From positions 1 through 38,494 of IMG/VR virus record IMGVR_UViG_3300032608_000443: a stretch of DNA of 38,494 bases; one strand, given 5' to 3'. This DNA is from a virus (Duplodnaviria > Caudoviricetes). Both the position numbers and the translations under genes were made by a program. The notes below the pieces were generated by a model, which saw nothing but the letters and a program-made list of their open reading frames with translations, ran no database searches and was not told the origin of the DNA. Of this stretch, positions 1,971-24,800 are shown in pieces. Numbering within the stretch: position 1 is the stretch's first letter; each line of letters starts with the position of its first letter.

Positions 1971-2510
1971 ATGGAATTTATAAAATTTAATAAAATACCA
2001 AGACTGACAAGAGAGTGTGTTATTACAGAAAAGATAGACGGCACTAATGGTGTAATCCATATCGGAGAAGAAGGTGAATTTCTAGTTGGTAGTCGCTCTC
2101 GTTGGATTACTCCCAAAACTGATAATCACGGGTTCTGTAAGTGGGCATTGGAGAATAAAGAAGAATTGTTAAGACTCGGAGTAGGAACCCACTATGGGGA
2201 GTGGTGGGGTAGCGGAATACAGCGAGGCTATGGCCTACTTAACGGTGAAAAAAGGTTCAGCTTATTTAATACTCATAGGTGGTCTGATGATTTGGTGCGT
2301 CCTAAATGTTGTCATGTAGTTCCAGTTTTATATACTGGAATTTTTGATACTTTTATGATTGATAAAGTATTACATGCTTTAGCAAATAAAGGGTCACAAG
2401 CAAGTCCTGACTTTATGAAACCGGAAGGTATAGTTATATTCCACAGAGCAGGCAATTTATTATTTAAAAAGACAATAAAAGATGATGAAACACCAAAGGA
2501 GGTCCAATGA
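1971..2510 (+). CDS. RNA ligase (Rnl2-like nucleotidyltransferase domain)
   Basis: Motif I TEKIDGTN; GEWWG; FSLFN; EGIVI; FKK. Confidence 0.85.
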   Translation: MEFIKFNKIPRLTRECVITEKIDGTNGVIHIGEEGEFLVGSRSRWITPKTDNHGFCKWALENKEELLRLGVGTHYGEWWGSGIQRGYGLLNGEKRFSLFNTHRWSDDLVRPKCCHVVPVLYTGIFDTFMIDKVLHALANKGSQASPDFMKPEGIVIFHRAGNLLFKKTIKDDETPKEVQ

Positions 2511-3747: not shown

Positions 3748-3968
3748 TGCCTGAACTATGTCCGCATTGCGGTAGTGATGAGATACTATCCGATTACTTT
3801 GAAGATGAATGGTTGTACTGGTGTGGTCATTGTGGCCGCGAGATAATGGCTGAAACGGAGGAGAGTGATTATGAGTTCGACCCGTACGAATATGAAATTA
3901 CCATACCCAAAGCTAAGGGGAAACCTGAAGAGGATAGTTTACCCGGCCTGGGTAGAGATAAAGTATGA
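3747..3968 (+). CDS. Zn-ribbon acidic small protein
   Basis: CPHCG...CGHCG; TAATG coupling. Confidence 0.6.
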   Translation: MPELCPHCGSDEILSDYFEDEWLYWCGHCGREIMAETEESDYEFDPYEYEITIPKAKGKPEEDSLPGLGRDKV

Positions 3969-4659
3969 TGGCATACTAGGCTGGTGTGAATTTACAAGAG
4001 CTGGTGATAATAGTAATGCTACAGTATGGAATAAGTCTGGTAAGATATACCAAGATACAGACCATAGGCAAGCTAAGATAAAAGAATGTTGTTGTCAGCT
4101 TTTAGTCATAGGTGAAATTGTCAAGGGTAATGGAAAAAAAGGTGACTTGAAGAATGTTAAACCTAATGACTCAGGATTTCTTCCCTTTGATGTCTTAGAA
4201 TACAATTGGGTAAGCCAGAGAGAAAAGCCATTAATTGAGAGATTAGAGTTATTAAATTCAGTAGTAGAAGGTCCTACTCCATTTAGAGTAATACAATCAG
4301 AATCAGAAGTCATGGAATACTATAATAAATGGACCCAAAAAGGTTATGAAGGCATAGTAGTCAAGAACCTGAATGAGAGATATATGACTGGGCCATGCAA
4401 CTGGGTTAAGATCAAGGCCAAGGATCAGAATGATTACTTTGTATTCAGTATTGACCCAACGCTTGATAGAATTGAAGTAGCAGTACCAGCACCAACAGGT
4501 ATAAGTGGTAAATATGTAGGAGTCAAGGTAACACCAGCAGTTAAAGCAACACTTAAGAAATGTGATACTGTAATTATTGAACACCAAGGTGTAACAGCTA
4601 GTGGCTCTTTACGCCACCCAGTGTTCATAAAGAAAGTGGAGGATGGAGATGGCAACTAG
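3892..4659 (+). CDS. lig: Minimal ATP-dependent DNA ligase
   Basis: EIKYDG (motif I), GEIV, FDVL, EGIVVK, WVKIK, C-terminal OB-fold LRHPVF. Confidence 0.9.
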   Translation: MKLPYPKLRGNLKRIVYPAWVEIKYDGILGWCEFTRAGDNSNATVWNKSGKIYQDTDHRQAKIKECCCQLLVIGEIVKGNGKKGDLKNVKPNDSGFLPFDVLEYNWVSQREKPLIERLELLNSVVEGPTPFRVIQSESEVMEYYNKWTQKGYEGIVVKNLNERYMTGPCNWVKIKAKDQNDYFVFSIDPTLDRIEVAVPAPTGISGKYVGVKVTPAVKATLKKCDTVIIEHQGVTASGSLRHPVFIKKVEDGDGN

Positions 4660-5773
4660 TGTAGTAAGTAATGAACAACTGAAGGCACTGAGGGATGAGT
4701 TAGCCAAGCAGGGTAAGATTAAAGCTTGGCAGATTAAGGATATGATTGCAGTAAAATATGGTGTAACTCTTGATGAGAGTATTATTAGGGGTAGATTCAT
4801 AGAGATGGGTGAGCCATTAAGTGGCGGTGGTGGTCCTAAGCCAGCTAAAGCAGCAACTAAGGTATCAACTACTCAAAGAGCTGACTTCAAGCAGACCGTA
4901 GCTCATAAAGAACATGATATACCAGATGATATGAGAAAGTACATTCCTGATGCTAATGAGTTTGCTGGTTACATTGAGAGAGATGTAGATACCAGATTAG
5001 CAGTGCATTATAACCTGGGTAAATATCCTATCACTCAAGGTAAGCAGGGTACAGGTAAGACCTTTGGTCATATGTACTATGCTCATAAGGCCCAATTACC
5101 ATTCTTATTATTTAGTGGATATGAGGACTTCAAGCTGACCAAGCTGTTTGGTGATAAGACAATCATCAAGGGCAGCATAGTATTCCAGGAGAGTATTTTT
5201 GTTAAAGCTATCCAATGTCCAAGCGTAATCTTATTTGATGAGATCAATGCAGTAAGTAATGCCAATACCTTTGACTTCCATGCCTTGCTACAGAACAGAG
5301 AGTTATTCATCAAGGATGCTGATGATGGTAGGGGTAGAGTGTATAATTTGCATCCTGAGTGCAGGATAGGATTTGCTCAGAATCCCAAGTCAGCTAAGTA
5401 TATTGGTGGTTGTATTAAGCCAAGTAACTTCTTAGGCAGATGTACATATATCACTTATCCTGAGTTCACTAAAAATCAGATAGAAAAAGCAATTAAGCTG
5501 AGGTATCCCAAGATGGATGAAGTTGAAATCCTGAAGTTCTCTACTTATTACTTTGCAGTACTGCAGACAATAGAAAGAGCTAGTTTACCAGTAGATGTCA
5601 GTATTAGGCAGCTTAATAATCTAATTGATATGTGGATGGCCGGCATGCCACTCAAGAATGCAATTGAAGATGCGGTCAGTAGTATATTAGATGCAGTGTC
5701 ACAACCCAAGGCTAAAGATAGCTTTAATAAACTTGCGGAGGCAATATGGCAGGAACTAATGAAAAAGAAATAA
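4643..5773 (+). CDS. MoxR/CobS-like AAA+ ATPase
   Basis: Walker A GKQGTGKT, Walker B ILFDE, sensor AQNP, arginine finger FLGR, sensor II SIRQL. Confidence 0.85.
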   Translation: MEMATSVVSNEQLKALRDELAKQGKIKAWQIKDMIAVKYGVTLDESIIRGRFIEMGEPLSGGGGPKPAKAATKVSTTQRADFKQTVAHKEHDIPDDMRKYIPDANEFAGYIERDVDTRLAVHYNLGKYPITQGKQGTGKTFGHMYYAHKAQLPFLLFSGYEDFKLTKLFGDKTIIKGSIVFQESIFVKAIQCPSVILFDEINAVSNANTFDFHALLQNRELFIKDADDGRGRVYNLHPECRIGFAQNPKSAKYIGGCIKPSNFLGRCTYITYPEFTKNQIEKAIKLRYPKMDEVEILKFSTYYFAVLQTIERASLPVDVSIRQLNNLIDMWMAGMPLKNAIEDAVSSILDAVSQPKAKDSFNKLAEAIWQELMKKK

Positions 5774-6048
5774 TAAAAGTAGGGGACATAATTGTCAGAA
5801 GAGAAGGTATAAGGCCCACTTGGATAAAAGACTTTAAGCCAACGATAGTCACAAAGATAACTTCAGCCAAGAAGTGCCGTAGTTATGGTGGTGATGGAGC
5901 ATGTTTGATATGTCCTGGAAGAATAAATGATGAGTGCTATGGATATGATGATGCTTACGCCTGTTGCATAGTAGTAAGACCTATATTATCTAGTCCTAGC
6001 AATATTCAAAGGGTTATTGAAATAGAAGTAGCTAAATTACTAGCGTAA
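5746..6048 (+). CDS. Cys-rich KOW/SH3-like small protein with shared C-terminal helix
   Basis: IKVGDIIV near N-terminus; six Cys; ends IQRVIEIEVAKLLA. Confidence 0.6.
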   Translation: MAGTNEKEIIKVGDIIVRREGIRPTWIKDFKPTIVTKITSAKKCRSYGGDGACLICPGRINDECYGYDDAYACCIVVRPILSSPSNIQRVIEIEVAKLLA

Positions 6049-6201
6049 GCACCAGAGCTACCGGTGTCCGAGCTCAACTGAGTGTTACCAAGCGGAGCGG
6101 TAACACGAAGGAGTGTTCGTGATACGAACAATGCTGCGATGAGCATGCGGAGCGCGAAGAGCAGCCGAGAAAGAGCTGGGTAACCGGTAGTCTCTGATGC
6201 T
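6048..6201 (+). ncRNA. Structured RNA element E1
   Basis: Closing stem CAGAG-CTACCGGT/ACCGGTAG-T-CTCTG; hairpins GTGTTACC/GGTAACAC, TGTTCGT/ACGAACA, GCTGC-GATGA...GAAGA-GCAGC. Confidence 0.75.
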
Positions 6202-6213
6202 GAAGCGAAGGAG

Positions 6214-6507
6214 ATGATGAATAAGTTTAAAGTAGGGGAAAAAGTTAAAATACTGCCTTTACCTCATCCTGATGATCCAGATGGGCGAGCGCCTGGAACT
6301 AATGAAGAAATGCTTAGATTAGTAGGTCAATACGGTAGAGTAATAAATGATCAGGGTGCCTCTAAAGATTGGTATACTGTCAGTGTAAAAGGTAGAGGTA
6401 CTTGGAATTACAGAGAAGAATGGCTGGAAAAACGAAATCCAGAAGAAGTTACTGACCTTGAGAGTGTTATTGCTCAAGTAGTAGCTAAGATAAGGGGAGG
6501 TAAGTAG
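6214..6507 (+). CDS. KOW/SH3-like (YorP-like) small protein with shared C-terminal helix
   Basis: FKVGEKVKI...GQYGRV...YTV...WNYREEWLE; ends LESVIAQVVAKIRGGK. Confidence 0.7.
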   Translation: MMNKFKVGEKVKILPLPHPDDPDGRAPGTNEEMLRLVGQYGRVINDQGASKDWYTVSVKGRGTWNYREEWLEKRNPEEVTDLESVIAQVVAKIRGGK

Positions 6508-8012
6508 TGGCAAACAGAAGGACCTATGAGATCCTTGCTAAATGGATAGCTAAGAAGCAAGGCATAACAATAGAATTTAAGCCTGATATTACACCTCAGG
6601 TAAATACTGATACTAATCATATAATACTGCCCAGTAACATTGATGAGCAGAACATATATGCAGCTTTGGCTCAGCTAATGCACGAGGCAGCTCATTTGAG
6701 ATACACTAAGGGCATTCCTATCAAAGAGATAGTTAGTGATCAACTCTCATTTGAGCTGCTAAATGCAATTGAGGACATCAGAATTGATCAGAAGAACTTC
6801 AGGATACTACCTAATATCCATGCTTTCTATGAGCGGTTAATAGATCATGTAATGGAATGGCGTAAGGAGAATAATGTCCAGCCTAAAGACATACCACTGC
6901 ATAGAAGAGTGTTGGGTGATATCAAGTGTGATATGGAAGACTTCCGTGATGGTAAGTGGAATGATCCAGAGACCAAGAAGTTAATCGATGACCATGATAT
7001 TTATGACATAATATATGAGACCATAAATGATCTTGAGCACGGTAGATGGCCTAAGGTAAAAGCAACTATTCAAAAGCTTATGAAAATCTTTAAGCTAGAT
7101 AAGTTACCTAAGCAGCCAATAGGCCAGCCAGGAGATTGTGGTACATGTGGTGGTAGTGGAGAAGTAGCACAGCCTGGTGAGGAGGAGGGGGGAAAAATTA
7201 AGTGCCCTGACTGCGGAGGTACTGGTAAAGAAGGCTTTGGTAATGAACCTGGTAAAGAGAAAGTATTTGGTACTAAGCCTGGTACTGGTACATGTCCTGG
7301 TTCATCTGCTATAGGTGAAGTAGCCATGGAAGAGCTGACTAAGCAGAAATTTAGAGAGCTGCTTAATGTCAAAGAGAAGAGAACAGTATATGATGGCCAT
7401 GAGATTGATAGTGATAATCTTACAGCATTCCTGACTGGAGATATTGATGAGTTATTTACTGAAGAAAGAGTAGTCAGGAATAAGAAGAGTAAGATAGCTA
7501 TACTAATAGATGCTTCAGGATCTATGGATTGTGAGTTAATGGATGGTGAGCCAAGGAGAGAAGTAGTAGGTGGTTGTATTAAGAACTTGGTTGAGATACT
7601 GGATGAGGTCATGGTGTTAGAAGGCATTAATGTAGACTACCAGGTAGGTGGGTTTACTGAAGACTATCATCCTTTCCAGAAGGAGACATGGGAAAAGGAA
7701 TATACTACCATATCAGGTGGTACCAATCTATTAGAAGCATTCAATCAGGTTCATGGTGAATTAGTAGCAGACCAGGAGATAGATGGTAACAGGTTAATGA
7801 TCATGTTTACTGATGGTGAGGTAGATAACAGTGAAGTAGTAGATATGAAGAAGGCTATCATGAGGCATGGTGAAGATGTCAGGTGTATGATCATAGGTGT
7901 TGGTGCTGATCTGAATAGTCACATAGTTAAAGAAGTAGTTGGTGATCACAATATATTAGTAAAAGAAGCAGCAGATCTAATATTAATCGAGACTATAATG
8001 CAGATGCTGTAG
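6507..8012 (+). CDS. CobT-like MoxR partner: HExxH domain, DnaJ-type Zn finger and C-terminal vWA
   Basis: HEAAH...NAIEDIRI; CGTCGGSG and CPDCGGTG; MIDAS DASGS, GGT, TDG. Confidence 0.85.
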   Translation: MANRRTYEILAKWIAKKQGITIEFKPDITPQVNTDTNHIILPSNIDEQNIYAALAQLMHEAAHLRYTKGIPIKEIVSDQLSFELLNAIEDIRIDQKNFRILPNIHAFYERLIDHVMEWRKENNVQPKDIPLHRRVLGDIKCDMEDFRDGKWNDPETKKLIDDHDIYDIIYETINDLEHGRWPKVKATIQKLMKIFKLDKLPKQPIGQPGDCGTCGGSGEVAQPGEEEGGKIKCPDCGGTGKEGFGNEPGKEKVFGTKPGTGTCPGSSAIGEVAMEELTKQKFRELLNVKEKRTVYDGHEIDSDNLTAFLTGDIDELFTEERVVRNKKSKIAILIDASGSMDCELMDGEPRREVVGGCIKNLVEILDEVMVLEGINVDYQVGGFTEDYHPFQKETWEKEYTTISGGTNLLEAFNQVHGELVADQEIDGNRLMIMFTDGEVDNSEVVDMKKAIMRHGEDVRCMIIGVGADLNSHIVKEVVGDHNILVKEAADLILIETIMQML

Positions 8013-8146
8013 CTCAGCTGAGACATGGAGCATCTTCTGAAGTGCTGCGGGCGGATGCAAGCAGCACAAGCGATTGGCCTGATGAGTGTGAGAACACGAA
8101 GAAGGACAATAAAAGATGCGCAATGTCTGGGCTGAGCTTACAGCAT
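8004..8146 (+). ncRNA. Structured RNA element E2 (same architecture as E1)
   Basis: ATGCTGTA-GCTCAGCT-G-AGACAT / ATGTCT-G-GGCTGAGC-T-TACAGCAT; GCATCTT/AAGATGC; GTGCTGC/GCAGCAC; GATGA-GTGT-GAGA-ACAC-GAAGA. Confidence 0.75.
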
Positions 8147-8251
8147 ATCGGAACTGATGAGTTGGGCGTACGCGTGGTCCTAGCAATCCAGCTGAGCACA
8201 CATAAAAATGCACCAAAATAAGCTAAATAAGCTAAAGGAAGGAGAAATAAT

Positions 8252-8908
8252 ATGGCCTATCGATTAAATATTGTTGATAGTAAAAATGGCCTGTCATTTA
8301 ATGTCAGGTACGAGAACTTAGCCAAAGCTAAGAGGCCAAGCATCACAGCCAGGAATAGTGATGGTAAAGAAATCAAGCAGGTAACTAAGTATGGTGATGA
8401 GATCTTGCAGAAAGGATCCACCAGGAAGGCCTGGGTAGATGACGCGGGCCAGGAGTACAGTAAAACAGAGCTTAACTTCTGGATAGATGAGCAGCAGGTA
8501 GAAGAGATAGATCAGACTAAGGTGTTTGATATTGAAGGCTTCCAGCCAGTCTGCAACTATACTGATACCTATGTTATCAGTGCTTACTATGAGGTCTATC
8601 CAGATAACAATGGCATGAAGAAGGACATAGATAGGCAGAAAGCAGAAGCAGCTAATAATACTCAGATGTATAAGCTATGGAAATACCTAGATGACAATCA
8701 GTTAGTAGCTAGGGGGGAATTTAATCCAGCGAGCCGTGGTTTTATAGCCAGCGATGGTTATATAAGAGCCATTAAAGTAGGAGGAGGTTGGGCATTGGAA
8801 ATTGGCGTTTTTAAAGAACAAAAAACATTTAATCATTTACAAGTTGGTGAACCCAAAGCAGTTAAGGTAAAATCTAAATCCAAAGGATCGCGAATTAAAT
8901 TAGTATGA
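8252..8908 (+). CDS. Probable divergent Ku-like DNA-end-binding protein
   Basis: TKVFDIEGFQP...YVISAYYEVYPD...MYKLWKYL...LVARGEF follows the prokaryotic Ku core pattern (ieIeeFVp..idpiy..pYyl.Pd...aY.lL..al....vaia.f); basic C-terminal tail. Confidence 0.55.
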   Translation: MAYRLNIVDSKNGLSFNVRYENLAKAKRPSITARNSDGKEIKQVTKYGDEILQKGSTRKAWVDDAGQEYSKTELNFWIDEQQVEEIDQTKVFDIEGFQPVCNYTDTYVISAYYEVYPDNNGMKKDIDRQKAEAANNTQMYKLWKYLDDNQLVARGEFNPASRGFIASDGYIRAIKVGGGWALEIGVFKEQKTFNHLQVGEPKAVKVKSKSKGSRIKLV

Positions 8909-8947
8909 CAGAATTCTCTTGACAAAACTGTCATGTTAAGTTACATC
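8905..8947 (+). promoter_or_regulatory. Sigma70-like promoter overlapped by an inverted repeat (candidate operator)
   Basis: TTGACA at 8919-8924 between ATGACAG (8905) and CTGTCAT (8928); the -10 is weak. Confidence 0.5.
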
Positions 8948-8992
8948 GGACTTTATAGTAGCAAAATTAACTAGTTGAAAGGAGGTGATAGT

Positions 8993-9358
8993 ATGAGCAG
9001 GAACAATAAGCTAACTCAAGTAGAGCGGGACTGGATCCAAGAACAATCCCAAGCAGGAATAGGTCCTGAAGTTATCCGGGATGAACTGTTCCACAAGTTT
9101 GGGAAGAAGATAACCCACTCTACTGTTTACTATTGGGGAGATCCTGAGTATCGGGAGAATGCTAAGAAAAACGCTAGAAGAAGAACCAGACGCGTTAAGC
9201 CTAGTACCCCTACCAGTAGTTGTAAGCACATCATTCTGGATGAGAGAAATATTGCTGACTTATTAGTAGGCGATATAGTATCTCTGAAAGGTGGTGTTAC
9301 CATTTCCTACCGTCATTCCCTAAATGACAAAGTAAAAGACTTCCTCGTATCCCTCTAA
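8993..9358 (+). CDS. HTH-type DNA-binding regulator
   Basis: AAGGAGGTG RBS; LTQVERDWI...IRDELFHKFGKKITHSTVYYW is a winged-HTH-like pattern. Confidence 0.65.
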   Translation: MSRNNKLTQVERDWIQEQSQAGIGPEVIRDELFHKFGKKITHSTVYYWGDPEYRENAKKNARRRTRRVKPSTPTSSCKHIILDERNIADLLVGDIVSLKGGVTISYRHSLNDKVKDFLVSL

Positions 9359-9365
9359 GTAACAA

Positions 9366-9394
9366 TGGCCCCCAGCTATTTCTAGTGGGGGCCA
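9366..9394. terminator. GC hairpin between convergent transcription units
   Basis: TGGCCCCCA...TGGGGGCCA. Confidence 0.65.
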
Positions 9395-9454
9395 CCTTTC
9401 CGATTCAATTAGCACTTCTATTTGGTACTATCAGTTATGGGATAACCACCTCCA

Positions 9455-9718
9455 TTAATCAAAGTATGTTGGTTTATTCTCCAACACCATATCAGCAAAG
9501 CGTTCTACATCATGCTGATAATATCCACAAACCTCTTTCCCATCAATCATTAGTACAGGACAAGTCTGTCCACCAATCCAATCATTAAACTTAGCCATAG
9601 TCCTCTGAGTCAGGTACTCCTTGACTTCGTCTTCGGTCATACCTAACTTCGAGTATTTTATTTTTTTAGGCTTGCGGCGTTTAACCGCGGAAGACCTAGG
9701 ATCAACTCTTCTCATCAT
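9455..9718 (-). CDS. Hypothetical phage protein
   Basis: FNDWIGGQTCP...YYQHDVERF; coupled to upstream ORF. Confidence 0.7.
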   Translation of the reverse strand: MMRRVDPRSSAVKRRKPKKIKYSKLGMTEDEVKEYLTQRTMAKFNDWIGGQTCPVLMIDGKEVCGYYQHDVERFADMVLENKPTYFD

Positions 9719-10209
9719 TTAGTAAGCCTCCACTTCTTCTTGTCACTCAAGAACCATGAGTGATCATCAGTCAAGTAGCTAAACACTACATTGTCTTTAG
9801 ATGTAGCACCTTTAAGATATGTCCAGCCAACACCTTTAGCATTAGTAGTAGTAGTACTAGTTATATCATCATCATAAACTTCAACCTCTTGTTCTTTTCT
9901 TGGATTCCCACCAACAAGCTTAGCTACTTCTTGATCTATCACCTCTTGAAGCGTTGGGTTGGTAACCGGTTCTGGTGTCTTCTCTTTCTCACTCTTCTCT
10001 GTACCAGTAAAAGCATTGTTAAATACTTCAGCTGCAAGTCGTTCTTGAGTTGCTCTAATCTTCTCCGTCATCTCATTTGGGCTAACACCTTTTGGTAGCG
10101 GTATCATTTGGCCGGGCTTAGGTAATTGCCAGCTAGTCCAACCTGTTATAAACGCCTGCTTCTTCATTTGGTCATGCTCCTCTTTACTTGTGTAACCTGT
10201 CATTGTCAT
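9715..10209 (-). CDS. Hypothetical protein with internal shared helix
   Basis: Contains TLQEVIDQEVAKLVGG. Confidence 0.65.
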   Translation of the reverse strand: MTMTGYTSKEEHDQMKKQAFITGWTSWQLPKPGQMIPLPKGVSPNEMTEKIRATQERLAAEVFNNAFTGTEKSEKEKTPEPVTNPTLQEVIDQEVAKLVGGNPRKEQEVEVYDDDITSTTTTNAKGVGWTYLKGATSKDNVVFSYLTDDHSWFLSDKKKWRLTK

Positions 10210-10231
10210 CTCCGTTTACTCCCCCTGTTGC

Positions 10232-10705
10232 TTACTCCACTCCCATTACAACTATTGGTACCATTAGAGTTACGAACACTGTGCCAACTGCCCAGGCAGC
10301 TCCACCCAACGTTGCCATGCTCAGTCCGATCAGCAATGCGATTGTCCCCCTGGTCATAAACGTTGCCAAGAAATCACTCTCACCACATATCTTATACCAG
10401 AATCTACCCAACGTTGAGCCCTCATCGGTGTCATCCGGGATCCCGTATCCAATTGTCAACGCCGCAAAGAATGGGATCACCGATAGCATTGGAACCCAAC
10501 GCCCCTGGTTAATGGAGCACGCAGCACATATAGCCAACGGCACGCCTACTCTCCTCCAACCCAACGATGTACCATGTGCACCACCGATTGCCCACAGCAG
10601 GGAGCTAGCGAACACTGCTATCAAACTCCACCAGCCCATAAAGTAAGCCCAACTAGCACCTACCACAAATCCAACACATAGTTCTTCTCTATTTAACTTC
10701 ATCAT
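10232..10705 (-). CDS. Multi-pass membrane protein
   Basis: 4-5 hydrophobic segments; GYG motif. Confidence 0.7.
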   Translation of the reverse strand: MMKLNREELCVGFVVGASWAYFMGWWSLIAVFASSLLWAIGGAHGTSLGWRRVGVPLAICAACSINQGRWVPMLSVIPFFAALTIGYGIPDDTDEGSTLGRFWYKICGESDFLATFMTRGTIALLIGLSMATLGGAAWAVGTVFVTLMVPIVVMGVE

Positions 10706-10901
10706 TCTTTCCTTTCTTAAGCACCACTGTGGGTATGATGACTAGGTGCTCAGCCAAGGCATGGCCCTCAGTCCACTCTACCGCTTCCGGTAAGGTCTCA
10801 CAGTGCTTAGAAATTACTAGTTCATTACCCCCAAAGATACCGCATACTAAATAACTAGGCCTAACCTTTTTAAAAGCATCATTCTTCGTTACTTGAACCA
10901 T
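10689..10901 (-). CDS. Hypothetical protein
   Basis: Overlapping operon ORF. Confidence 0.55.
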   Translation of the reverse strand: MVQVTKNDAFKKVRPSYLVCGIFGGNELVISKHCETLPEAVEWTEGHALAEHLVIIPTVVLKKGKNDEVK

Positions 10902-11094
10902 TTTCTAATCCTTCCCCAGAGCGTATTATTCGCTCCGCTTCCTCTAACGCTTGGACACTGGCCATGTTCCGGGACAGCTTGATTGCCCGGACTAAGAGCT
11001 GGCGTATGAACTTCAGGTGTCTTAACCTTAAGTCCCATATCTTTATCTGAGTGCCCCCGTTCTCCGTTGTTATCGTAAGTTCTAATTCTACCAC
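10879..11094 (-). CDS. Hypothetical protein
   Basis: GGGG RBS-like stretch; protein-like composition. Confidence 0.5.
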   Translation of the reverse strand: MVELELTITTENGGTQIKIWDLRLRHLKFIRQLLVRAIKLSRNMASVQALEEAERIIRSGEGLENGSSNEE

Positions 11095-11190
11095 CGAAAG
11101 CCCCTTTCTGGTTAACTATCCTACCCGTTCTCCTGCTATTCTTTGGGGCCATACCCCTTCTAACCGTAGTAACCTTAGCCATTTACCCTC

Positions 11191-11448
11191 CTATAATCCT
11201 GTGCAGTCCCAAATTACATCCTCAACATCCTCAAGGATATCGTCATCATCATCGTCCTTCAACGCTTTCTTTGCGTGATCAAACTGCTCTTTAGTAATCG
11301 GTGGTAAGGGCGTACCCTTCTTAATAATCCACTGCCTCATTAGTTCTAATGTCATAGCAATCTCGCTGTCCTTCATCAGTTTAACCCAACGCATACTATT
11401 GCTAAGATGAAGCCAATAATGCCACCTATTAAACCTATAACCAAGCAC
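11191..11448 (-). CDS. Hypothetical protein with acidic tail
   Basis: Operon position. Confidence 0.5.
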   Translation of the reverse strand: MLGYRFNRWHYWLHLSNSMRWVKLMKDSEIAMTLELMRQWIIKKGTPLPPITKEQFDHAKKALKDDDDDDILEDVEDVIWDCTGL

Positions 11449-11860
11449 TCGAATCTAGTATTTCCCATACACATATGAAACCCCTTTGGTTTTTACCCTT
11501 GAAGCAGGCTACTGGAAAGAGATCTGGGTTATAACGCTTGGCCTGATCCAACGTTGACGTAATAAACTGAGCTTGATTGGACTTCTTTGGTACTGTAACC
11601 AACGCATGTACATTTGGCTTCACCCCTTCAATCTTCACAAACTGTTCAGGGGTGACTACGAATCTCCTGTCAACTACTTTCAGGAGCGTTGGGTCCTTCA
11701 CATTCAGGTATTTAGGTAACTTTGACCTGTACTTACACTCAATACTGAAGCGTGGATGGCTCATGTCACCTGCCACCTCATCATAGCTAACTCTTACTAT
11801 GCGGGTTGCACCAAAGAACTCCGAGACCTCTTTCTCAAACTGCTTCCAAGCTTTACCCAT
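11435..11860 (-). CDS. Holliday junction resolvase-like PD-(D/E)XK nuclease
   Basis: WKQFEKEV...GD...SIECK...QAKR. Confidence 0.7.
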   Translation of the reverse strand: MGKAWKQFEKEVSEFFGATRIVRVSYDEVAGDMSHPRFSIECKYRSKLPKYLNVKDPTLLKVVDRRFVVTPEQFVKIEGVKPNVHALVTVPKKSNQAQFITSTLDQAKRYNPDLFPVACFKGKNQRGFICVWEILDSSAWL

Positions 11861-12122
11861 TGGTTAACCTCCACTCATACATAGCGGCTTCTTGTTCAGT
11901 TACCCTGAGTACATACTTAGCATCCCCATCATGGCAGGCACGACAAAGGCCTTTAGCACAGAATACTGAAGCCATAAACAACGGGAACAGCTTCTGGTTA
12001 GTCTTAGTGTTGGGTAAGCAGTGATGCACATCTACCATACGTGATTCGCATAACTTGCATCTTCCGTTTTGGGCTTCGTAGATGTCGTCTCTGACTTCCC
12101 TTGAAAATCCCTTTTCTTCCAT
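11853..12122 (-). CDS. HNH-like endonuclease / Zn-binding protein
   Basis: CKLC...DVHH...LCRACH. Confidence 0.7.
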   Translation of the reverse strand: MEEKGFSREVRDDIYEAQNGRCKLCESRMVDVHHCLPNTKTNQKLFPLFMASVFCAKGLCRACHDGDAKYVLRVTEQEAAMYEWRLTNG

Positions 12123-12565
12123 AGCACTACCTCCCCACAGATTATGTCCCTTGGATAACTATTATATATCTCCCAACACTGGCGGCCCCTATCAGACTCA
12201 TCCCATGTCAACCAAGTATCAATGTACCGTTCCAACGCCCTAACGTTGGATAGATTCTGTGCCGCAGCATGCCATAGCTTCTCATAGTATTTAACCACAT
12301 CAGTATCTTTATTAATAATATCAAGTATCTGTGCCTTCTCAGCATTAGGACGCTTCTTAAACTTCAATGAGTTCTTATCTTTCTGGAATTCTACTAGCTT
12401 GAAGGGCCGGGATGGTAAGGGTTGGTACTTAAGCTCATCCAGGGAGTCCAACGCTATCTCAGCCAACAGTACTTCCAGCTCTTCATGACTGTTGGAGTTA
12501 TCCCAAGCAGAGTGACACTGCCCGCTTACTTCTTTAGAGGTTAGCTTCTTAAAGTCAATGTTCAT
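12032..12565 (-). CDS. Hypothetical protein
   Basis: Long ORF in operon. Confidence 0.6.
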   Translation of the reverse strand: MNIDFKKLTSKEVSGQCHSAWDNSNSHEELEVLLAEIALDSLDELKYQPLPSRPFKLVEFQKDKNSLKFKKRPNAEKAQILDIINKDTDVVKYYEKLWHAAAQNLSNVRALERYIDTWLTWDESDRGRQCWEIYNSYPRDIICGEVVLWKKRDFQGKSETTSTKPKTEDASYANHVW

Positions 12566-12803
12566 TGAGCCTCCTAACTTCTTGGTCTATAACATCTTGG
12601 AGAGTCTGTTCACCCAATGGTTCAATATCCCCCTTTAAATATGAACCATACCGATCAGGATCAGACTTCTGTGTATAGCGCATTTGAGGCATTGGTTGTT
12701 GTGTGCCAGTAGTAGTTGAGCTTAGCTGTTGGTAATCTCCATTACCTGCAGTTTCAGCTGCATCTCTCCAATCTTTCCATCCATAATCACCTGTTCCCAT
12801 CAT
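12555..12803 (-). CDS. Hypothetical protein with shared C-terminal helix
   Basis: Ends TLQDVIDQEVRRLNEH. Confidence 0.65.
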   Translation of the reverse strand: MMGTGDYGWKDWRDAAETAGNGDYQQLSSTTTGTQQPMPQMRYTQKSDPDRYGSYLKGDIEPLGEQTLQDVIDQEVRRLNEH

Positions 12804-13267
12804 ATCCTCCCTAATAGTTTAACCTGTTTGTCTACAGCCATTTGTACCTTTTCTTCTAAGGTCTTAGGCATAACAAAGGGGTTATGGTTGCCTACTTTTG
12901 GTATTGGTGGTGGTTTACTACTTAGTAATTTAAGTGCAGCTGGTACTAATGATGGTGGTACTAGCAACACTGGTTCATTTGGATTAGGCATATTTCTAAT
13001 CGCTTCTACATCTGCACTGTTATTCACCTCACCATACAATGATATCCTGGTATCACAACGGAGACAAATGATCTCTAAATCCGTTTCGCACCATGCTGTA
13101 CCATCTACTTTCTTACAGATAGGGCACCAGAATTGAGCTCGGTAATACTTAGTACCATTAACTGTTTTACTCTCCCCAAATGATGGGGCAGTGCTCTTAA
13201 GCATAGTTGGCCCAGTACTAGCTGATAGCTTCTTCATCTTAGTTCTAAAAGAGGCTTTTGTCGTCAT
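12800..13267 (-). CDS. Zn-finger protein with shared C-terminal helix
   Basis: CPIC...CLRC; Pro-rich linker; ends VQMAVDKQVKLLGRI. Confidence 0.65.
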   Translation of the reverse strand: MTTKASFRTKMKKLSASTGPTMLKSTAPSFGESKTVNGTKYYRAQFWCPICKKVDGTAWCETDLEIICLRCDTRISLYGEVNNSADVEAIRNMPNPNEPVLLVPPSLVPAALKLLSSKPPPIPKVGNHNPFVMPKTLEEKVQMAVDKQVKLLGRI

Positions 13268-14018
13268 AGTTTCCCTCCAGTGCCTTTACATAATTATCAT
13301 CATTAGCTATAAACCAGTCAATACCAAAGGGTTGGCCAGTTCTGTTGTTGCCTAAGCAGAAGCCTGAGTTAGCCATCTTACCCAACGCGGCTTCCCAGTT
13401 GTCCTTGAAGTGTTGGTTCTTAAGTCTAGCTATAATCTTAGCAGTCCGGGCCTTGCTAATAGTGGCCACCTTCTTCAATTCAGTTGAGTTCCACTTATTT
13501 ACAATATAGCTTAATACTTCTTTATTACTTATTAAGTCTTTCTTGATAATATTATTGTTTACTTTATTAGCTTTTCTTATTACTTTATTAGTTCTATTAG
13601 TATTAAAAGCTTCTTCTTCTTCTTCTTGTACCCTAACGGTTACCTTACCTAGATAGGGTAGCTTGTTAGGGTAACTAGATAGGTTAAGACCATGTCTCTT
13701 GATTAGCTTCAAAACAGTCTTATGTGGAGCACAAGTAGCTGATAAGCAACCATATTGATATTCAATGAAGTGGGGTAAGTGCCATTTACCTGATGGTAGG
13801 ACTACTAACCGCTCTTTACCTTCATTAAATATCTCTAATATCTCCTCTACGCTAAGTGGTGTCCCTACATAAAAGCTAGCTAAACCTATATCCTCTTTCC
13901 ATACCCCTGCCTTATCACATTCATCTAAGATGTATGCCCAGAAGACTTTATACTGCATTGGTAGCCTTCTAAACCAGGGATCTTGCCATTTCTCCGTCTC
14001 AGTAAACCGCTTCATCAC
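13245..14018 (-). CDS. Phage replication initiator / replisome organizer
   Basis: KRFTETEKWQDPWFRRL...YILDECDKAG N-terminal domain; C-terminal WN...R...FCLG...IDWF...NYVKALEGNYDD. Confidence 0.75.
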   Translation of the reverse strand: MMKRFTETEKWQDPWFRRLPMQYKVFWAYILDECDKAGVWKEDIGLASFYVGTPLSVEEILEIFNEGKERLVVLPSGKWHLPHFIEYQYGCLSATCAPHKTVLKLIKRHGLNLSSYPNKLPYLGKVTVRVQEEEEEAFNTNRTNKVIRKANKVNNNIIKKDLISNKEVLSYIVNKWNSTELKKVATISKARTAKIIARLKNQHFKDNWEAALGKMANSGFCLGNNRTGQPFGIDWFIANDDNYVKALEGNYDDKSLF

Positions 14019-14129
14019 ATCCCCCGTATCAGCTTCATAACCAGCTTTGTCCAGTGATAGCTATCAGTATCGCCCTTAATAACCCAATTACAACTGCTAG
14101 CTGTACAATTAGTATTATTCTAGTTATCA

Positions 14130-14294
14130 TCACTCCCCCTCTTCAAACAACTTATCCAACCCAGTCATAAGGACACACTTTACAGCTGCAATCATATCTT
14201 CTATCAGCTTTGCATCTAATGTTTTCTTCCTATGTTGCCTTAAACAATAGACTTGTGCCATTTTCTCCAATAGCTTTTTTTCAAAGTTACTCAT
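14130..14294 (-). CDS. Small hypothetical protein, 54 aa (not in ORF track)
   Basis: ATGA overlap; MSNFEKKLLEKMAQVYC...EEGE*. Confidence 0.55.
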   Translation of the reverse strand: MSNFEKKLLEKMAQVYCLRQHRKKTLDAKLIEDMIAAVKCVLMTGLDKLFEEGE

Positions 14295-14650
14295 ACACCC
14301 CCCAATACTTTTACTTGTTGATCTATAACGTCTTGTAGTGATTTAGGTTCCTTAGGAGGAGCTTGTATCTTACGACTAAGATTAGCTATCTCCTCACCAA
14401 GCTGGTCCTTTACTGAAGCTAGCATTGGCTTATTGTTAACCGTAGGTATATTTAATCTATGCTGACAGAACATACGTTTCTGTATTTGTCTTTGGTTTGT
14501 ATTTACTGGCTTAGCTCTCCGTCTTAAGTACTCCTCAAGCAGCTCCCGTAACTCCATTATCTGTTTTACATGGTCACTTACAGCCATCTGATCCCCTCCT
14601 ACAATGCCCTTTTTTAGCGATTTCAACTCATTTCTCCCTTGTTCTAGCAA
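14291..14650 (-). CDS. Hypothetical protein with shared C-terminal helix (true start probably MAVSDH, ~14587)
   Basis: AGGAGG before internal ATG; ends SLQDVIDQQVKVLGGV. Confidence 0.65.
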   Translation of the reverse strand: MLEQGRNELKSLKKGIVGGDQMAVSDHVKQIMELRELLEEYLRRRAKPVNTNQRQIQKRMFCQHRLNIPTVNNKPMLASVKDQLGEEIANLSRKIQAPPKEPKSLQDVIDQQVKVLGGV

Positions 14651-17021: not shown

Positions 17022-17140
17022 TTCATTCCCCCTTTATCTTCTTGCCTATCCAGTATGGTATTGCTAGCACTATTGCTTTAATCGCTATCAGTATTCCCAC
17101 TGTAATCATAAGCATAGAGCTTAGCAAGGATCGCAGGAAA

Positions 17141-20592: not shown

Positions 20593-21285
20593 TTACCAAC
20601 CGTACTTAACTGTAGCTATCAAGGCTTTCTCATCAATCAACTTACCTTCAATTGAGATTGCCAAGCGCTCAGTTGGGTTACCTACAAGACCAAGGCGTAT
20701 GCCCAGGTTCTTATCAGCATCTAAATCTGCATCAAGACCAGTACCGAAACCTTCAACATCTATATCGATAAGGGTATCGCTCCAGACTACTGCTACGTAT
20801 GGTTTCATATTCAAGTCAAGATTTGCTGTAGCTTTGATACCAAGCTCATACTCATGAAGCTTAACATCAGACTTCAGTGGCATAGAAACAGATGTGTTAT
20901 TAATTACTACCTCATCTATCTCTGCATCACCAAAGCGGTAGCCACCTATTAAACTAAGGTCTACCATATCAACTGAAGTAAGAGCATACTCAGCATTAAA
21001 ACCTAAAGCTAAGCCCGCTGTGTTCTCAATTGATATGCTATCAGCATTGATTTCGGAGTCCCACACGCCTATGAGAGGAGTTACTTGAAGATCACCTATG
21101 GTAAGCTTTACACCTGCCATGTAAGTCTGGCTCTCCAATTCAACCTCCATCTCCTGACCACCTATCTCAACCGTCATGTCTTTCTCAAACTGAATATCAG
21201 CTTCTACTTCTGCGCTGAGACCAGCTAATGCCGGAGAGCTAAAGGCCAGTAATGCTACTACTGCTAACGCTAACACTTTTTTCAT
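20593..21285 (-). CDS. Outer-membrane beta-barrel protein
   Basis: Sec signal MKKVLALAVVALLAFSSPALA; alternating beta strands; C-terminal aromatic ATVKYGW. Confidence 0.75.
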   Translation of the reverse strand: MKKVLALAVVALLAFSSPALAGLSAEVEADIQFEKDMTVEIGGQEMEVELESQTYMAGVKLTIGDLQVTPLIGVWDSEINADSISIENTAGLALGFNAEYALTSVDMVDLSLIGGYRFGDAEIDEVVINNTSVSMPLKSDVKLHEYELGIKATANLDLNMKPYVAVVWSDTLIDIDVEGFGTGLDADLDADKNLGIRLGLVGNPTERLAISIEGKLIDEKALIATVKYGW

Positions 21286-21316: not shown

Positions 21317-21586
21317 TTATTTTTTAAATAGTTTCTTTAAAGCCTGTATTTCGCGATCTGGCAAGCCTGCATTTACAGCTGACTTTACGGCGTCCTTTAT
21401 TAATGTTGGTTTTCCTAGAGGCCGATTGGCAATTGGCTTAAACTTAATCGGTTCATATTTTTTAATAGTTGGCCTTCCCTTTATATTAACCTTAATATTT
21501 GGCCTTCCCTTTATATTAACCTTAATATTCTTTGTTCCCATTCCTACCTCCTTCTTTTTAGAATTCTGTTCTTTGTTTAATTCCAT
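21317..21586 (-). CDS. Basic hypothetical protein with tandem repeat
   Basis: NIKVNIKGRP occurs twice. Confidence 0.5.
   Translation of the reverse strand: MELNKEQNSKKKEVGMGTKNIKVNIKGRPNIKVNIKGRPTIKKYEPIKFKPIANRPLGKPTLIKDAVKSAVNAGLPDREIQALKKLFKK
21470..21529. repeat. Perfect 30-nt tandem duplication
   Basis: TGGCCTTCCCTTTATATTAACCTTAATATT x2. Confidence 0.9.
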
Positions 21587-21875
21587 GTCTCTCAGTTCCT
21601 TTCCAGATCCTACCCATGTTCTTGAGTAGTGGTGCCGTCTGGGGGAACATTATCTTTTCTTGAATCCAGAGATATTTATCAATAGTTATCTTACCGCTTT
21701 CTAGATATTTGTCAAGTTCTTTCGGGTGAGCTCTGAGGTAGTTAGCTATCTTATCATCATGATAACTGATCTCTTCTACATCCCTGCGGATAGCTTCATT
21801 CTGTGAAGGGTCACCACCTGGTTCAACAGCTTGCCCTAGCTTAACACTAGCTCCCATTAAGCCAACGCCTCTCAC
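21558..21875 (-). CDS. Stand-alone paralogue of the C-terminus of the 2301-aa protein
   Basis: YLRAHPKE[LI]DKYLESGKIT and flanks shared with the last ~108 aa of the upstream gene. Confidence 0.8.
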   Translation of the reverse strand: MRGVGLMGASVKLGQAVEPGGDPSQNEAIRRDVEEISYHDDKIANYLRAHPKELDKYLESGKITIDKYLWIQEKIMFPQTAPLLKNMGRIWKGTERHGIKQRTEF

Positions 21876-24800
21876 CTCCCTTCTCTAAGTATTTTTAATG
21901 TCCGTGATTCTATACCGTGCTTTTGAGTACCTTCTATGATCGTATTTATATCTCTAAGTAATGGAACTGATACCGGCGCTGCAGCCTTCTTCTTCAACCA
22001 CAATGCTTGATCATAAGTTATCTTACCACTTTCTAAATATTTGTCAATCTCTTTCGGGTGAGCCCGCAGATACATCATGATCTTATTATTATAATAATCT
22101 ATCTCTTCCTTATCTCTCCTCCTAGCTTCATTGAGCTCAGGAGACATACCTTCTTCTTGACCAGGACCAAGCTTAACATTAGCTCCAAATAACCCAATTC
22201 CCTGAGCTAGCCTTCCTTGCCAGGTCTTAGCCATGTGCCCTGGAACATGCCAATCCTTTTTAAATTCAGTAGGCAAGACACCCTGAGTAACCATAGTCAT
22301 CAAGTCTTTCATATAATTGACAACCCCTACTGTCTTAATATCCCATAGCACCTTATTATCCATTGCATCCCGCGCAGTAACCCAGCCAAGAATGTTATTA
22401 ACTGGGACATTCAGCTTGCCCCTGAAGTACCTAAACTTATCATGGATAATACCAACAATCTGAGGAAACTCTCTCCACATAAGCACATCAAGAAAGAAGA
22501 AGCCACCAGTTACTGAGCTCTTCCAAGGAGTTTTAATCCAGAACTTCCCCATTCCATTGTTTAAGAAAGCCCACTTATCCTCTTCTTTTGTATCCTCAGG
22601 ACCAAAAGCCTGCCATAAAGCAAACTGTATAAGATTATTAAATACTGTCCTGGTACCAGCAACTCTTGCTAAGTGCTCAGCATAGATACCAGTCATGGCT
22701 GCCATGTCCGTAGCAGATTTCTCCCCATGGAGAAGAGAATTCATCATTGAACCACCAGCTCTGGCTAACTTTGGTAGGAATGATGGGTTACCATCTATTG
22801 CCCTATAACCATGGCCCATATACCAGAGAGGATAAGCAGCACCTGTCAGCTGCCTAAAGAAAGACATAGTAAAGTCACGGGCAAAGAGAACGCATGCTAG
22901 TAATGGCCCTTCATGGCCATAAACTGAGCTATTAAGCAAACCAGTCAGGTCACCCACCAGCATAGTAGCCCTGCGAGCTGCAGTATCCTCAGCCCAGCCT
23001 TCCTCCATAAACCTGTCATAGAAGGTGCTACATAGTTCATATATAATCTTAGGTAAATAGTGATTAAAAGCCGCGTTGTCCATACCAAACTTACTAGATA
23101 CAACTTCAGCCAAGTTATCAAATATAGGCCGTTGGTTAGGGTGCTGGGTATCTACAGACTTCTGATATAGTGACATCAAGGCCCAGTCCATAGAGAAAGA
23201 AGGAATACCATGTTTAAGCATATGGTACATCTTCTTTGCCTCGTAGTCATTATCCTTGAAGTGTTCCAAGGGATCATGCTGACGTAAAACTGTATTCCTT
23301 ATATCTCTAAACCCTCTTATTATAGGAGTTGCTTTAGCATTAACTCCCTTGAACCAGCCAGGAACAAAAGGTTTGATACCATGGTTCCAAGCCTGCTTAA
23401 GTCCCAAATGAGCCCAAGGAGTAGATGCCATCTGGAACATATATTTCATAGGGGTAATCATAATAAGTCTTTTAGCTGTCCTAGCATACCTGAGTATAGC
23501 TTTCATCCAGCCTGGAGTCCTAACATCGCGGGGTAAGGATTTAAATAAATCAAATACGTTCCTATGAACATATGGTGCCTGGAATGAACCCTTATGCCAT
23601 ACAGCTAATCCTTGCTCTGACTTAAGCTGAACATAGCCTAGTTTAGTAAAGATAGCGTTGGCTTCAGCTGCGTTATCACTAATTTCATGTTCATAAGAAA
23701 CCATATTTAAAGGCTTGCCTTCATAAACTACTCCTGAATCTAACTTCATTAACCGCTCTACTAAATTATGCTGATCAATTAGCCTCCCCATAGTCTCAGC
23801 ATATGAGCCGGCCACAGTAGAGAAGCTTTCTGATGGCTGCAACGAATCACTAGTCTCACCTTCAACTGCTATCTCAGCTTTAGTTTTAACCCAGAACTCA
23901 TCATAAGTACGGTAGTTACGTTCAGGTACCCTCAGCTCTCCTATATTACCAGTAAATTCCTTGGATGATCTCTGGTGTAGTGGCTTAGCTACAATCCTTT
24001 TAGTATAACCCTCTTGGTGTAATGAGTAGATCCTTGACCCATCTAGAGCACCAGATTCAAGACCAGCTTCAAGACCAGGATTCTGTATGTCATTCTTAAA
24101 ATCTATTACTGTATCTTTAAGAGAAGCTGGTACTAACTTACCATAAGCAAATTGATCTCTGCCAGCAGCCCAGTTAGATACATCCTGAGCAGTTATAGGT
24201 AAGTCTAACCTACGGTGCATTTCTGTCATGCCAGCTACGAAAGTAGCTGCCTCTTCTTGAGTTTCATGCTTACCACCAAGACCTATATTACTAGCATAGA
24301 ATTGACCAGGAACATTCTTACCTACTAATTCTTCAGAATGCTTAAGGAGTAACCAGTCATAAGCTTTAAAAGTTTTATCAGCTGCCATACTGGTACGCTT
24401 CCCTTTGAAGGTACTCTTTCTACCTATACCAGGAAACTTACTAGGAGTAACTGGAAATAAGGTATCAACATAATCCCATATTTGTCCTTGTATATCATTC
24501 TGGATAGCCCCACCAACAGTAGTATGTAAGGTTACAGATCTCTTAATAGCCTGCATATAATTAATAGCTTTGGACTTAAGGTGCAACTGCCACATCTTAG
24601 AAGGCTTAGGCCACTCCCAACCAGCTATTCTATCTTTACCATAAAAGCGGATTAACATCTCACGCTTTTCAAGATCTTCAACACCAAATATCTTCATAGC
24701 TGCAAGGTGCATTCTCATCATAGTACTAACTGACTGATGCTTAGCACCAGAAGAACTCTCATTAATATTTATAGGTTTAGTACCCTTGAAGTTAGGCCTG

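What the first reader, a model, noticed from the sequence alone, without database searches (positions are those of the whole stretch)
5998..14344. One docking-like helix (LQDVIDQEVxxLG) appended to at least six unrelated phage proteins
Seen in the sequence: IQRVIEIEVAKLLA* (5998-6048), LESVIAQVVAKIRGGK* (6451-6507), LQEVIDQEVAKLVGG (9907-9958, internal), LQDVIDQEVRRLNEH* (12555-12608), VQMAVDKQVKLLGRI* (12800-12850) and LQDVIDQQVKVLGGV* (14291-14344). Five copies are C-terminal and most follow a Pro/Ser/Thr linker. The carrier N-termini are unrelated (KOW/SH3-like, Zn finger, low-complexity). Codons differ synonymously between copies (CTT/CTC/CTA CAA; GTG/GTT ATA GAT/GAC), which points to selection on the peptide rather than a DNA repeat. 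Inference: a family of adaptors, each with a variable target-binding domain and a constant helix that docks onto one hub. Two carriers sit between the MoxR ATPase and its HExxH-vWA partner, so that machine is the leading candidate hub, giving a phage adaptor-directed remodelling or proteolysis system. Alternatives are a capsid-loading tag or a host-protein mimic. I do not recognise this motif.
Basis: partly seen in the sequence, partly recalled or inferred. Interest (0 to 1): 0.88.

Follow-up and report, generated by a model that had tools for sequence, protein, structure and literature searches.

The report
Shared docking helix on phage proteins
Six otherwise dissimilar small proteins of this uncultured phage carry the same 12-residue stretch, which related phages keep on a zinc-finger protein and on other, different proteins; it is predicted to be a helix that likely docks them all on one partner, possibly the phage's own ATP-driven remodelling machine, though no partner has been shown.

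Summary
The motif is real. All six copies are present: five C-terminal, one internal. A profile built only from other phages ranks them 1, 2, 3, 4, 6 and 7 of 11,426 window 12-mers. Synonymous codons are at or near chance, so it is a peptide signal. It is the C-terminal helix of a large family of phage SWIM zinc-finger proteins (finger, variable linker, helix). SWIM fingers had it only in phages with a ligase-MoxR-HExxH/vWA-Ku module; 15 SWIM loci without the module lacked it. Several relatives carry it on different proteins, in genome-specific dialects (P about 1e-4). Two relatives are integrated in Omnitrophota chromosomes. The partner is unidentified. The best lead is MoxR-vWA: the tag's best match among 7,621 profile windows is a MoxR small-subdomain helix, in the region that binds the vWA partner in NorQD and CobST. 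That lead is post hoc, and one 95%-complete relative keeps MoxR-vWA without tags. No microcompartment shell or PopZ was found in 44 candidate-host genomes. The scan earlier noted shared tags of other sequence in three other phages (not tested here).

The parts
6004..6039 (+). Tag copy 1, C-terminal, in the 100-aa gene 5746-6048 (KOW/SH3-like start, Cys-rich middle), directly after MoxR
   Evidence: rank 4
6457..6492 (+). Tag copy 2 (Val at position 8), C-terminal, in the 97-aa gene 6214-6507 whose stop overlaps the vWA start; no homologue found
   Evidence: rank 3
9916..9951 (-). Tag copy 3, internal (66 aa before the stop) in gene 9715-10209; possibly a fusion of a tagged gene with the next one (inference)
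   Evidence: rank 1
12567..12602 (-). Tag copy 4, C-terminal, in the 82-aa low-complexity gene 12555-12803
   Evidence: rank 2
12812..12847 (-). Tag copy 5 (most diverged), C-terminal, in the 155-aa gene 12800-13267 with two Cys pairs, after the replication initiator
   Evidence: rank 7
14303..14338 (-). Tag copy 6, C-terminal, in gene 14291-14587 (98 aa; ORF caller start 14650); no homologue found
   Evidence: (rank 6)
3865..4659 (+). ATP-dependent DNA ligase of the conserved module (rival hub)
   Evidence: Pfam PF01068 E 5.6e-12; cluster
4643..5773 (+). MoxR-type AAA+ ATPase with an N-terminal extension that looks like a helix-turn-helix (by eye); candidate hub
   Evidence: AAA_5 E 1.4e-8; phrog_249; Midasin, NorQ, CbbQ in PDB
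5651..5686 (+). MoxR small-subdomain helix (residues 337-348) that resembles the tag
   Evidence: rank 5 of 11,426; best of 7,621 profile windows; aligns with NorQ residues up to 247
6507..8012 (+). CobT/NorD-like partner: HExxH...E peptidase-like N-domain, disordered linker with two CxxCxGxG, vWA domain with intact MIDAS; candidate hub
   Evidence: motifs invariant in 16 of 16; model; best fold match NorD VWA E 1e-7
8252..8908 (+). Ku-fold protein of the conserved module (rival hub)
   Evidence: model pLDDT 83; Foldseek hits are Ku70/80 and bacterial Ku, best E 1e-7, TM about 0.45

Best explanation
The six copies are one peptide signal under selection, predicted to form an amphipathic helix (hydrophobic at positions 1, 4, 5, 9, 12; Glu, Ala or Val at 8), which likely docks its carriers on one phage-encoded hub, most likely the MoxR ATPase / HExxH-vWA machine of the ligase-MoxR-vWA-Ku module. 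Shown: the motif, its peptide-level conservation, its family-wide place at the end of a SWIM zinc-finger protein, its spread to different carriers in different genomes, and dialects. Inferred: the SWIM protein is the ancestral carrier; module shuffling and gene fusion moved the helix to new N-terminal domains; selection keeps copies within a genome alike because they share a partner. Speculative: the helix imitates the MoxR small-subdomain helix and binds the peptidase-like N-domain of the vWA protein, so that carriers, or what they grip, are delivered for ATP-driven remodelling or cleavage.
For: Motif real and peptide-level. Tag Glu-Val kept in at least 90% of 26 SWIM homologues while the linker varies; 58 of 122 SWIM tails of 15-75 aa end in the pattern against 1.5 in shuffles, linkers 11-52 aa (biased upward because the search profile held the tag). 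Different carriers in G001, G003, G008, L152, L024. One protein has SWIM, an SH3-like insert and the tag in a row (P0098). Dialects: 29 tags from 7 genomes, within-genome similarity 23.2 against 18.2 between, P=1e-4; nearest neighbour in the same genome 14 of 29 against 4.0. Of 16 SWIM loci, the 15 without MoxR, vWA or Ku hits have no tag and the one with the module has it. SWIM directly follows MoxR in L030, L036, L053. Best profile match of the tag among 7,621 windows of 29 families is the MoxR helix, 11.45 against 8.32. In NorQD and CobST the partner's N-domain binds the small helical subdomain of the ATPase. The one MoxR of 25 that lost the Asp in this helix is from tag-less G005.
Against: G005 (95% complete) keeps MoxR, vWA, Ku and ligase, has a SWIM without tag and no C-terminal hit above 11.2; G002 and G006 have only degenerate SWIM tails. 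Co-occurrence is clade-level, and most relatives were fetched by MoxR homology, so it cannot separate MoxR-vWA from Ku, ligase or another clade gene. 12 of 58 tags have no acidic residue at positions 6-8, which speaks against a MIDAS ligand. The MoxR-helix match is post hoc, ordinary amphipathic helices score 8, and the matching face is probably buried in the ATPase. SWIM-ligase fusions without tag (L033, L037, P0143, P0161) point to the ligase instead. Dialects could also come from old within-genome copying; some of the 29 tags were picked by eye.
Confidence: 0.4

Rival explanations
1. The helix self-associates: it bundles carriers into homo- and hetero-oligomers or a condensate, as microcompartment encapsulation peptides and the last helix of PopZ do (both recalled), with no separate hub.
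For: Small residues at positions 4 and 8 suit close helix packing (column counts). Dialects are also expected if tags bind tags. The pattern resembles PopZ/RomR C-termini (recalled, not tested).
Against: 15 SWIM fingers of unrelated phages do without the helix. Several genomes have a single detected tag. Pure homo-oligomerisers should diverge to avoid cross-talk (inference).
Confidence: 0.18
2. The helix docks on a conserved host protein (protease ATPase, RNA polymerase, replisome), making the carriers host-takeover adaptors like SPO1 Gp53 on ClpC.
For: Carriers are small, orphan genes of the early region. A precedent exists (PMC6873191 abstract).
Against: No host protein with a C-terminal tag in 44 Omnitrophota genomes; only the two prophage copies reach E<0.001 and the 20 weak hits rescored are all internal. 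A conserved host hub explains dialects less well (inference). The window's own host is not shown.
Confidence: 0.17
3. The hub is Ku or the ligase: the tag works like a Ku-binding motif (recalled) and gathers accessory proteins at DNA ends for end joining or circularisation.
For: SWIM is fused to the ligase without tag in L033, L037, P0143, P0161. Ku and ligase accompany MoxR across relatives. SWIM directly precedes Ku in L030, L036, L053.
Against: G005 keeps both without tags. This Ku has no vWA domain, where eukaryotic Ku-binding motifs dock (docking site recalled). Low-complexity and membrane-anchored carriers fit end joining poorly.
Confidence: 0.13
4. The tag loads proteins into the capsid for injection.
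For: Shell-loading peptides are often terminal amphipathic helices (recalled).
Against: C-terminal copies lie in the early/replication arms, not in the virion module, of the window, G001 and G003. The presumed scaffold's C-terminus is unlike the tag.
Confidence: 0.06
5. The helix is a hitch-hiking gene end, spread by recombination at gene junctions and kept only as a stable terminus.
For: Slight codon excess in the window; a likely accidental fusion to the AAA_24 gene in G001; trailing Gly/Lys come from the next gene's ribosome-binding site.
Against: Codons at chance in six other genomes while residues are kept; kept across 50%-identity clusters with free linkers.
Confidence: 0.06

Closest known systems
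MoxR AAA+/VWA pairs: NorQ-NorD, CobS-CobT, CbbQ-CbbO, RavA-ViaA
   Same: MoxR ATPase plus a partner with N-domain, disordered linker and MIDAS-vWA. CobT's N-domain is peptidase M48C-like and its client CobN docks with terminal helices near MIDAS (bioRxiv 10.64898/2026.07.21.739949, passages and section 6). ViaA is described as adaptor for RavA (PMC10585395, one passage).
   Different: In the passages read, each works on one or a few large clients. None is described with a short tag shared by many small proteins, or in a Ku-ligase module. HExxH is invariant here.
Jumbo-phage MoxR + metallopeptidase-vWA pair (Iyer et al. 2021, PMC7824862, passage seen)
   Same: Phage MoxR with a vWA protein fused to an N-terminal metallopeptidase domain.
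   Different: Proposed there for virion assembly. Here the pair lies in the early arm with ligase and Ku in a phage of about 50 kb; the passage mentions no tag, and the word SWIM does not occur in the main text.
Shared docking motifs on hubs: Ku-binding motifs, sliding-clamp peptides of T4, AKAP helices, microcompartment encapsulation peptides, encapsulin loading peptides (all recalled)
   Same: One short terminal motif on unrelated proteins after a flexible linker; the 1-4-5-8-9-12 spacing is that of AKAP helices and encapsulation peptides (recalled).
   Different: Other sequence; no Pfam or PDB match; no BMC shell in 44 candidate hosts; hub unknown.
SPO1 Gp53, phage adaptor of host ClpCP (PMC6873191, abstract)
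   Same: Small early phage protein that steers an AAA+ machine.
   Different: A single adaptor for a host machine, against a tag family and a candidate phage-encoded machine.
Phage Ku of mycobacteriophages Omega and Corndog (passage in 10.1101/2023.06.07.543977)
   Same: Phage-encoded Ku fold.
   Different: Those rely on the host ligase; this family encodes ligase, MoxR-vWA and SWIM beside Ku.

Membership tests
MoxR AAA+/VWA system | MoxR-type AAA+ ATPase | tested here: met
   AAA_5; Midasin, NorQ, CbbQ hits
MoxR AAA+/VWA system | Neighbouring vWA protein with intact MIDAS | tested here: met
   D335, S337, S339, T406, D436 invariant in 16 of 16; NorD VWA best fold match
MoxR AAA+/VWA system | Tagged proteins are its clients or adaptors | tested here: inconclusive
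   Co-occurrence at clade level and helix resemblance, against tag-less G005
MIDAS ligand | Invariant acidic residue to complete the metal site | tested here: not met
   12 of 58 SWIM tags have no Asp/Glu at positions 6-8; window copy 2 has none there
Zinc metallopeptidase (HExxH...E) | HExxH plus downstream Glu ligand conserved | tested here: met
   H59, E60, H63, E89 invariant in 16 of 16
Zinc metallopeptidase (HExxH...E) | Proteolytic activity | not testable with these tools
   Needs an assay; the fold search returned only vWA matches
Microcompartment encapsulation peptide | Terminal amphipathic helix after a variable linker | tested here: met
   Pattern and hydrophobic moments 0.42-0.69; family definition recalled
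Microcompartment encapsulation peptide | BMC shell genes in the host | tested here: not met
   PF00936 in 0 of 44 genomes of the Omnitrophota order that holds the prophages; controls rang; incomplete genomes, window's own host unknown
PopZ C-terminal domain (DUF2497) | DUF2497 protein in the host | tested here: not met
   0 of 44 genomes; control rang in Caulobacter
SWIM zinc finger (ancestral carrier, absent from the window) | CxC...CxH finger | tested here: met
   Invariant Cys/His; Pfam SWIM mostly under the cut-off, over it in 3 of 26 proteins scanned
Ku | Ku core fold | tested here: met
   Foldseek hits to Ku70/80 and bacterial Ku, E about 1e-7; no Pfam Ku hit
DNA repeat or recombination cassette | Nucleotide identity beyond the peptide | tested here: not met
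   63 of 161 against 57.9 in six other genomes; slight excess in the window only

The most novel reading that the evidence does not exclude
These phages encode their own adaptor-programmed, ATP-driven protease or remodeller: MoxR plus a HExxH-vWA subunit, addressed by a helix that imitates the ATPase's own partner-binding helix. New target-gripping domains are added simply by fusing them to that helix, giving a fast-evolving targeted-degradation kit used around genome ends or against host defences.
Probability: 0.15. Interest if true: 0.9.

Novelty: new variant of a known kind. Interest (0 to 1): 0.62.

Why it matters
The clients of phage MoxR-vWA (CobS/CobT-like) pairs are an open question; the one proposal I read is virion assembly. 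A 12-residue label on many orphan proteins makes the question testable with synthetic peptides and four purified proteins. It also groups proteins that homology search cannot touch into one functional set. If the machine cleaves or remodels what the adaptors bring, it is a phage-encoded modular proteolysis system and a possible engineering handle. It also describes a phage family with integrated members in Omnitrophota.

Tried and rejected
Complex prediction, full vWA protein plus a 34-residue tag segment: no answer (score 0.02, mark 0.32). This is no evidence either way; MoxR, Ku, ligase and tag copies were not folded with the tag. RNA runs: none was listed. Pfam and PHROGs give the carriers no family above a cut-off. 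Tag profile against PDB sequences: best E 0.022, a designed repeat. ESM Atlas: no feature hit, only generic helices. Peptide-pattern scans of IMG/VR: 1 hit and 41 hits, none a C-terminal tag in a plausible gene; the patterns were strict and near relatives are left out, so sensitivity was low. Host mimic: recurrent weak internal match to a helix of what I recognise as isopropylmalate synthase (name recalled; E 0.03-0.6), rejected as orthologous copies of a generic helix. BMC and PopZ hubs not found in 44 genomes. SH3/KOW homology among carriers not significant. De novo search for another shared tag in G002, G004, G005, G006, G009, G011: none above shuffles. The vWA last helix as tag mimic scored poorly. 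Ku search in 401 Omnitrophota genomes gave only the two known prophages. Homologue test of window carriers 6214 and 14291 failed for lack of homologues; the other four were not searched in the large database.
Full report
Setting. The window is a whole IMG/VR virus record of 38,494 bases, 73% complete. A rightward early arm encodes an ATP-dependent ligase (3865-4659), a MoxR ATPase (4643-5773), a HExxH-vWA protein (6507-8012) and a Ku-fold protein (8252-8908). A leftward arm encodes replication and recombination genes, then virion genes. Of 7 MoxR relatives in GTDB genomes, 4 lie in Omnitrophota assemblies. Two are integrated, with an integrase beside sigma-70 and primase genes or beside ribosome recycling factor. 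The window's own host is inferred from this, not shown.

Observation. All six peptides are present: five 2-4 residues before the stop, one internal. With a profile of the other five, each outranks all non-motif windows among 76,912 six-frame 12-mers. With a leave-genome-out profile, 4 of 62 window ORFs score 12 or more at the C-terminus (5 at 9 or more), against 0.06% of 17,940 shuffled C-termini and of 9,001 internal windows. A profile built from 58 SWIM tails, with no window sequence, ranks them 1, 2, 3, 4, 6, 7 of 11,426. All carriers have ribosome-binding sites. Same-residue pairs share a codon in 45 of 85 cases in the window (33.6 expected, P=0.024) and in 63 of 161 in six other genomes (57.9 expected). 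So this is a peptide signal, with perhaps some copying in the window.

Spread. I scanned 12 virus records and 22 of the 37 metagenome and genome loci that the MoxR searches fetched (the longer ones; all metagenome loci were also scanned once). Strong C-terminal copies occur in G001 (5, plus 2 weaker), G003 (5), G008 (3), G007 (2), L152 (2-3), L024 (1-3) and singly in G004, L014, L020/G010, L054, L055. Several of these helped train the first profile; one search is independent of all but the SWIM copies. Carriers differ between genomes; the window's six have no BLAST match in the relatives, and the two searched in the large database have no homologue. G001's AAA_24 protein ends in the tag, while the window's, 68% identical, does not; separate tagged genes follow AAA_24 in G003 and L152, so this is probably a fusion. 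No strong tag was found in G005 (95% complete; best 11.2), G002, G006, G009 or G011 (26-65% complete).

Ancestral carrier. A small SWIM zinc-finger gene was found in 15 of the 34 sequences, but not in the window or G001. It lies next to MoxR, Ku, vWA, ligase or the integrase. In most it ends, after a free linker, in the tag or a variant. It has no tag in G005 and G008, and it is fused to the ligase without tag in L033 and L037. A profile search gave 1,385 proteins at E<=0.001. Of the best 150, 122 have tails of 15-75 aa and 58 of these end in the pattern, against 1.5 in shuffles; linkers span 11-52 aa. The profile held the tag, so 58 is biased upward. Position 8 is Ala in 31, Glu in 17, Val in 5; 12 of 58 have no acid at positions 6-8, so a MIDAS ligand is unlikely. 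A tag-free DNA pattern for the finger gave 18 stretches, 16 of them SWIM-like: 15 have no MoxR, vWA or Ku hit in up to 10 kb on each side and no tag on the SWIM; the one with the module has it. An earlier pattern gave 23 stretches, 8 of them real SWIM genes: 7 from this family and one without module or tag. P0098 shows SWIM, an SH3-like insert and the tag in one chain, which suggests how the helix reached other N-terminal domains.

Dialects. Among 29 tags from 7 genomes, within-genome similarity is 23.2 against 18.2 between genomes (P=1e-4, 20,000 permutations; about 0.001 after dropping two near-identical window copies). The nearest neighbour is in the same genome for 14 of 29, against 4.0 expected. 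Some weaker tags were picked by eye. With codons at chance, co-selection for a genome-specific partner is the simplest reading; old copying or tag-tag binding would do the same.

The hub. Not identified. In 44 genomes of the prophages' Omnitrophota order there is no BMC shell protein, no DUF2497 protein and no host protein with a C-terminal tag. For MoxR-vWA: the HExxH...E and MIDAS residues are invariant in 16 of 16. The fifth-ranked 12-mer of the window is a helix of MoxR's small subdomain, and that helix is the best profile match to the tag among 7,621 windows of 29 families, 11.45 against 8.32. It aligns with NorQ's C-terminal helices. [quoted passage not shown] In CobST the M48C-like N-domain of CobT binds the small subdomain of CobS (10.64898/2026.07.21.739949, passages and section 6). 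The only MoxR of 25 that lost the Asp of this helix is from tag-less G005. Against: the match was found after the fact, the margin over ordinary helices is modest, the matching face may be buried, G005 keeps the machine, no tagged gene sits between MoxR and vWA in G001 or G003, and tag-less SWIM-ligase fusions point to the ligase. Co-occurrence cannot separate the four module genes.

Mechanism. Shown: the motif, its selection as peptide, the SWIM carrier family, the spread to new carriers, dialects, and the link to the module-bearing clade. Inferred: helix formation and a shared partner (about 0.75). Committed guess: MoxR-vWA as that partner (0.4). Speculative: mimicry of the MoxR helix and delivery for remodelling or cleavage (0.15).

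Known and new. It works like other one-motif-many-carriers docking systems (recalled: Ku-binding motifs, clamp peptides, AKAP helices, encapsulation peptides) but matches none by sequence and fails their host-side tests. Searches of the held library listed no paper on this tag, on tagged SWIM proteins or on this phage family; I saw only titles and abstract starts for most listings, read no supplements, and subscription journals are missing. Other texts seen: PMC7824862 (2 passages), PMC10585395 (1 passage), 10.1101/2023.06.07.543977 (1 passage), PMC6873191 (abstract). Three earlier notes of this scan describe shared C-terminal tags of other sequence in large phages, one naming CobS/CobT as reader; I did not test them and do not count them as support. 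Verdict: a real, well-supported tag family with an unproven hub; new variant of a known kind; interest 0.62.

Noticed in passing
window 3865-8908: Ligase, MoxR, HExxH-vWA and Ku form a module conserved across relatives, often with PC4-like and SpoVG-like genes (names recalled): a phage-encoded end-joining-like kit with an AAA+ machine.
   Followed up: partly
window about 17080-17140 (-): Right after the stop of the AAA_24 gene lies a diverged duplicate of about 13 of its last codons.
   Followed up: no
window 8880-8908 and Ku homologues: After a variable linker the Ku proteins end in a conserved basic-hydrophobic tail in about 20 of 24 homologues, like a ClpX-docking tail (recalled).
   Followed up: no
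window 4643-4830: MoxR has a conserved N-terminal extension that looks like a helix-turn-helix, which would tie the ATPase to DNA (by eye).
   Followed up: no
window about 7130-7240: The vWA protein's linker holds two CxxCxGxG motifs (DnaJ-like, recalled); the pattern count found two only in the window and G001 of 19 homologues.
   Followed up: no
L003, L067, L017-L019, L030, L035, L036, L053 MoxR C-termini: One MoxR clade has an extra C-terminal extension, mostly aromatic; its SWIM tails are variant types.
   Followed up: partly
L054 10052-11305; L055 6844-8050: In both integrated elements the tagged SWIM gene directly precedes the integrase; L054 also holds a short Mg-chelatase-family fragment at 9274-9879.
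   Followed up: partly
window 20593-21285 (-): Outer-membrane beta-barrel-like gene (weak Pfam hit, E 5.5e-4), possibly superinfection exclusion.
   Followed up: no
window 21558-21875 and the end of 21872-28777: The small gene and the last hundred residues of the 2301-aa gene before it share sequence, apparently a partial duplication.
   Followed up: no
window 1971-2510 (+): RNA-ligase-family gene (E 3.9e-13) besides the DNA ligase.
   Followed up: no
L186, L188, L189: SWIM fingers embedded in frames of 1,000-1,370 aa in other viral contigs.
   Followed up: no
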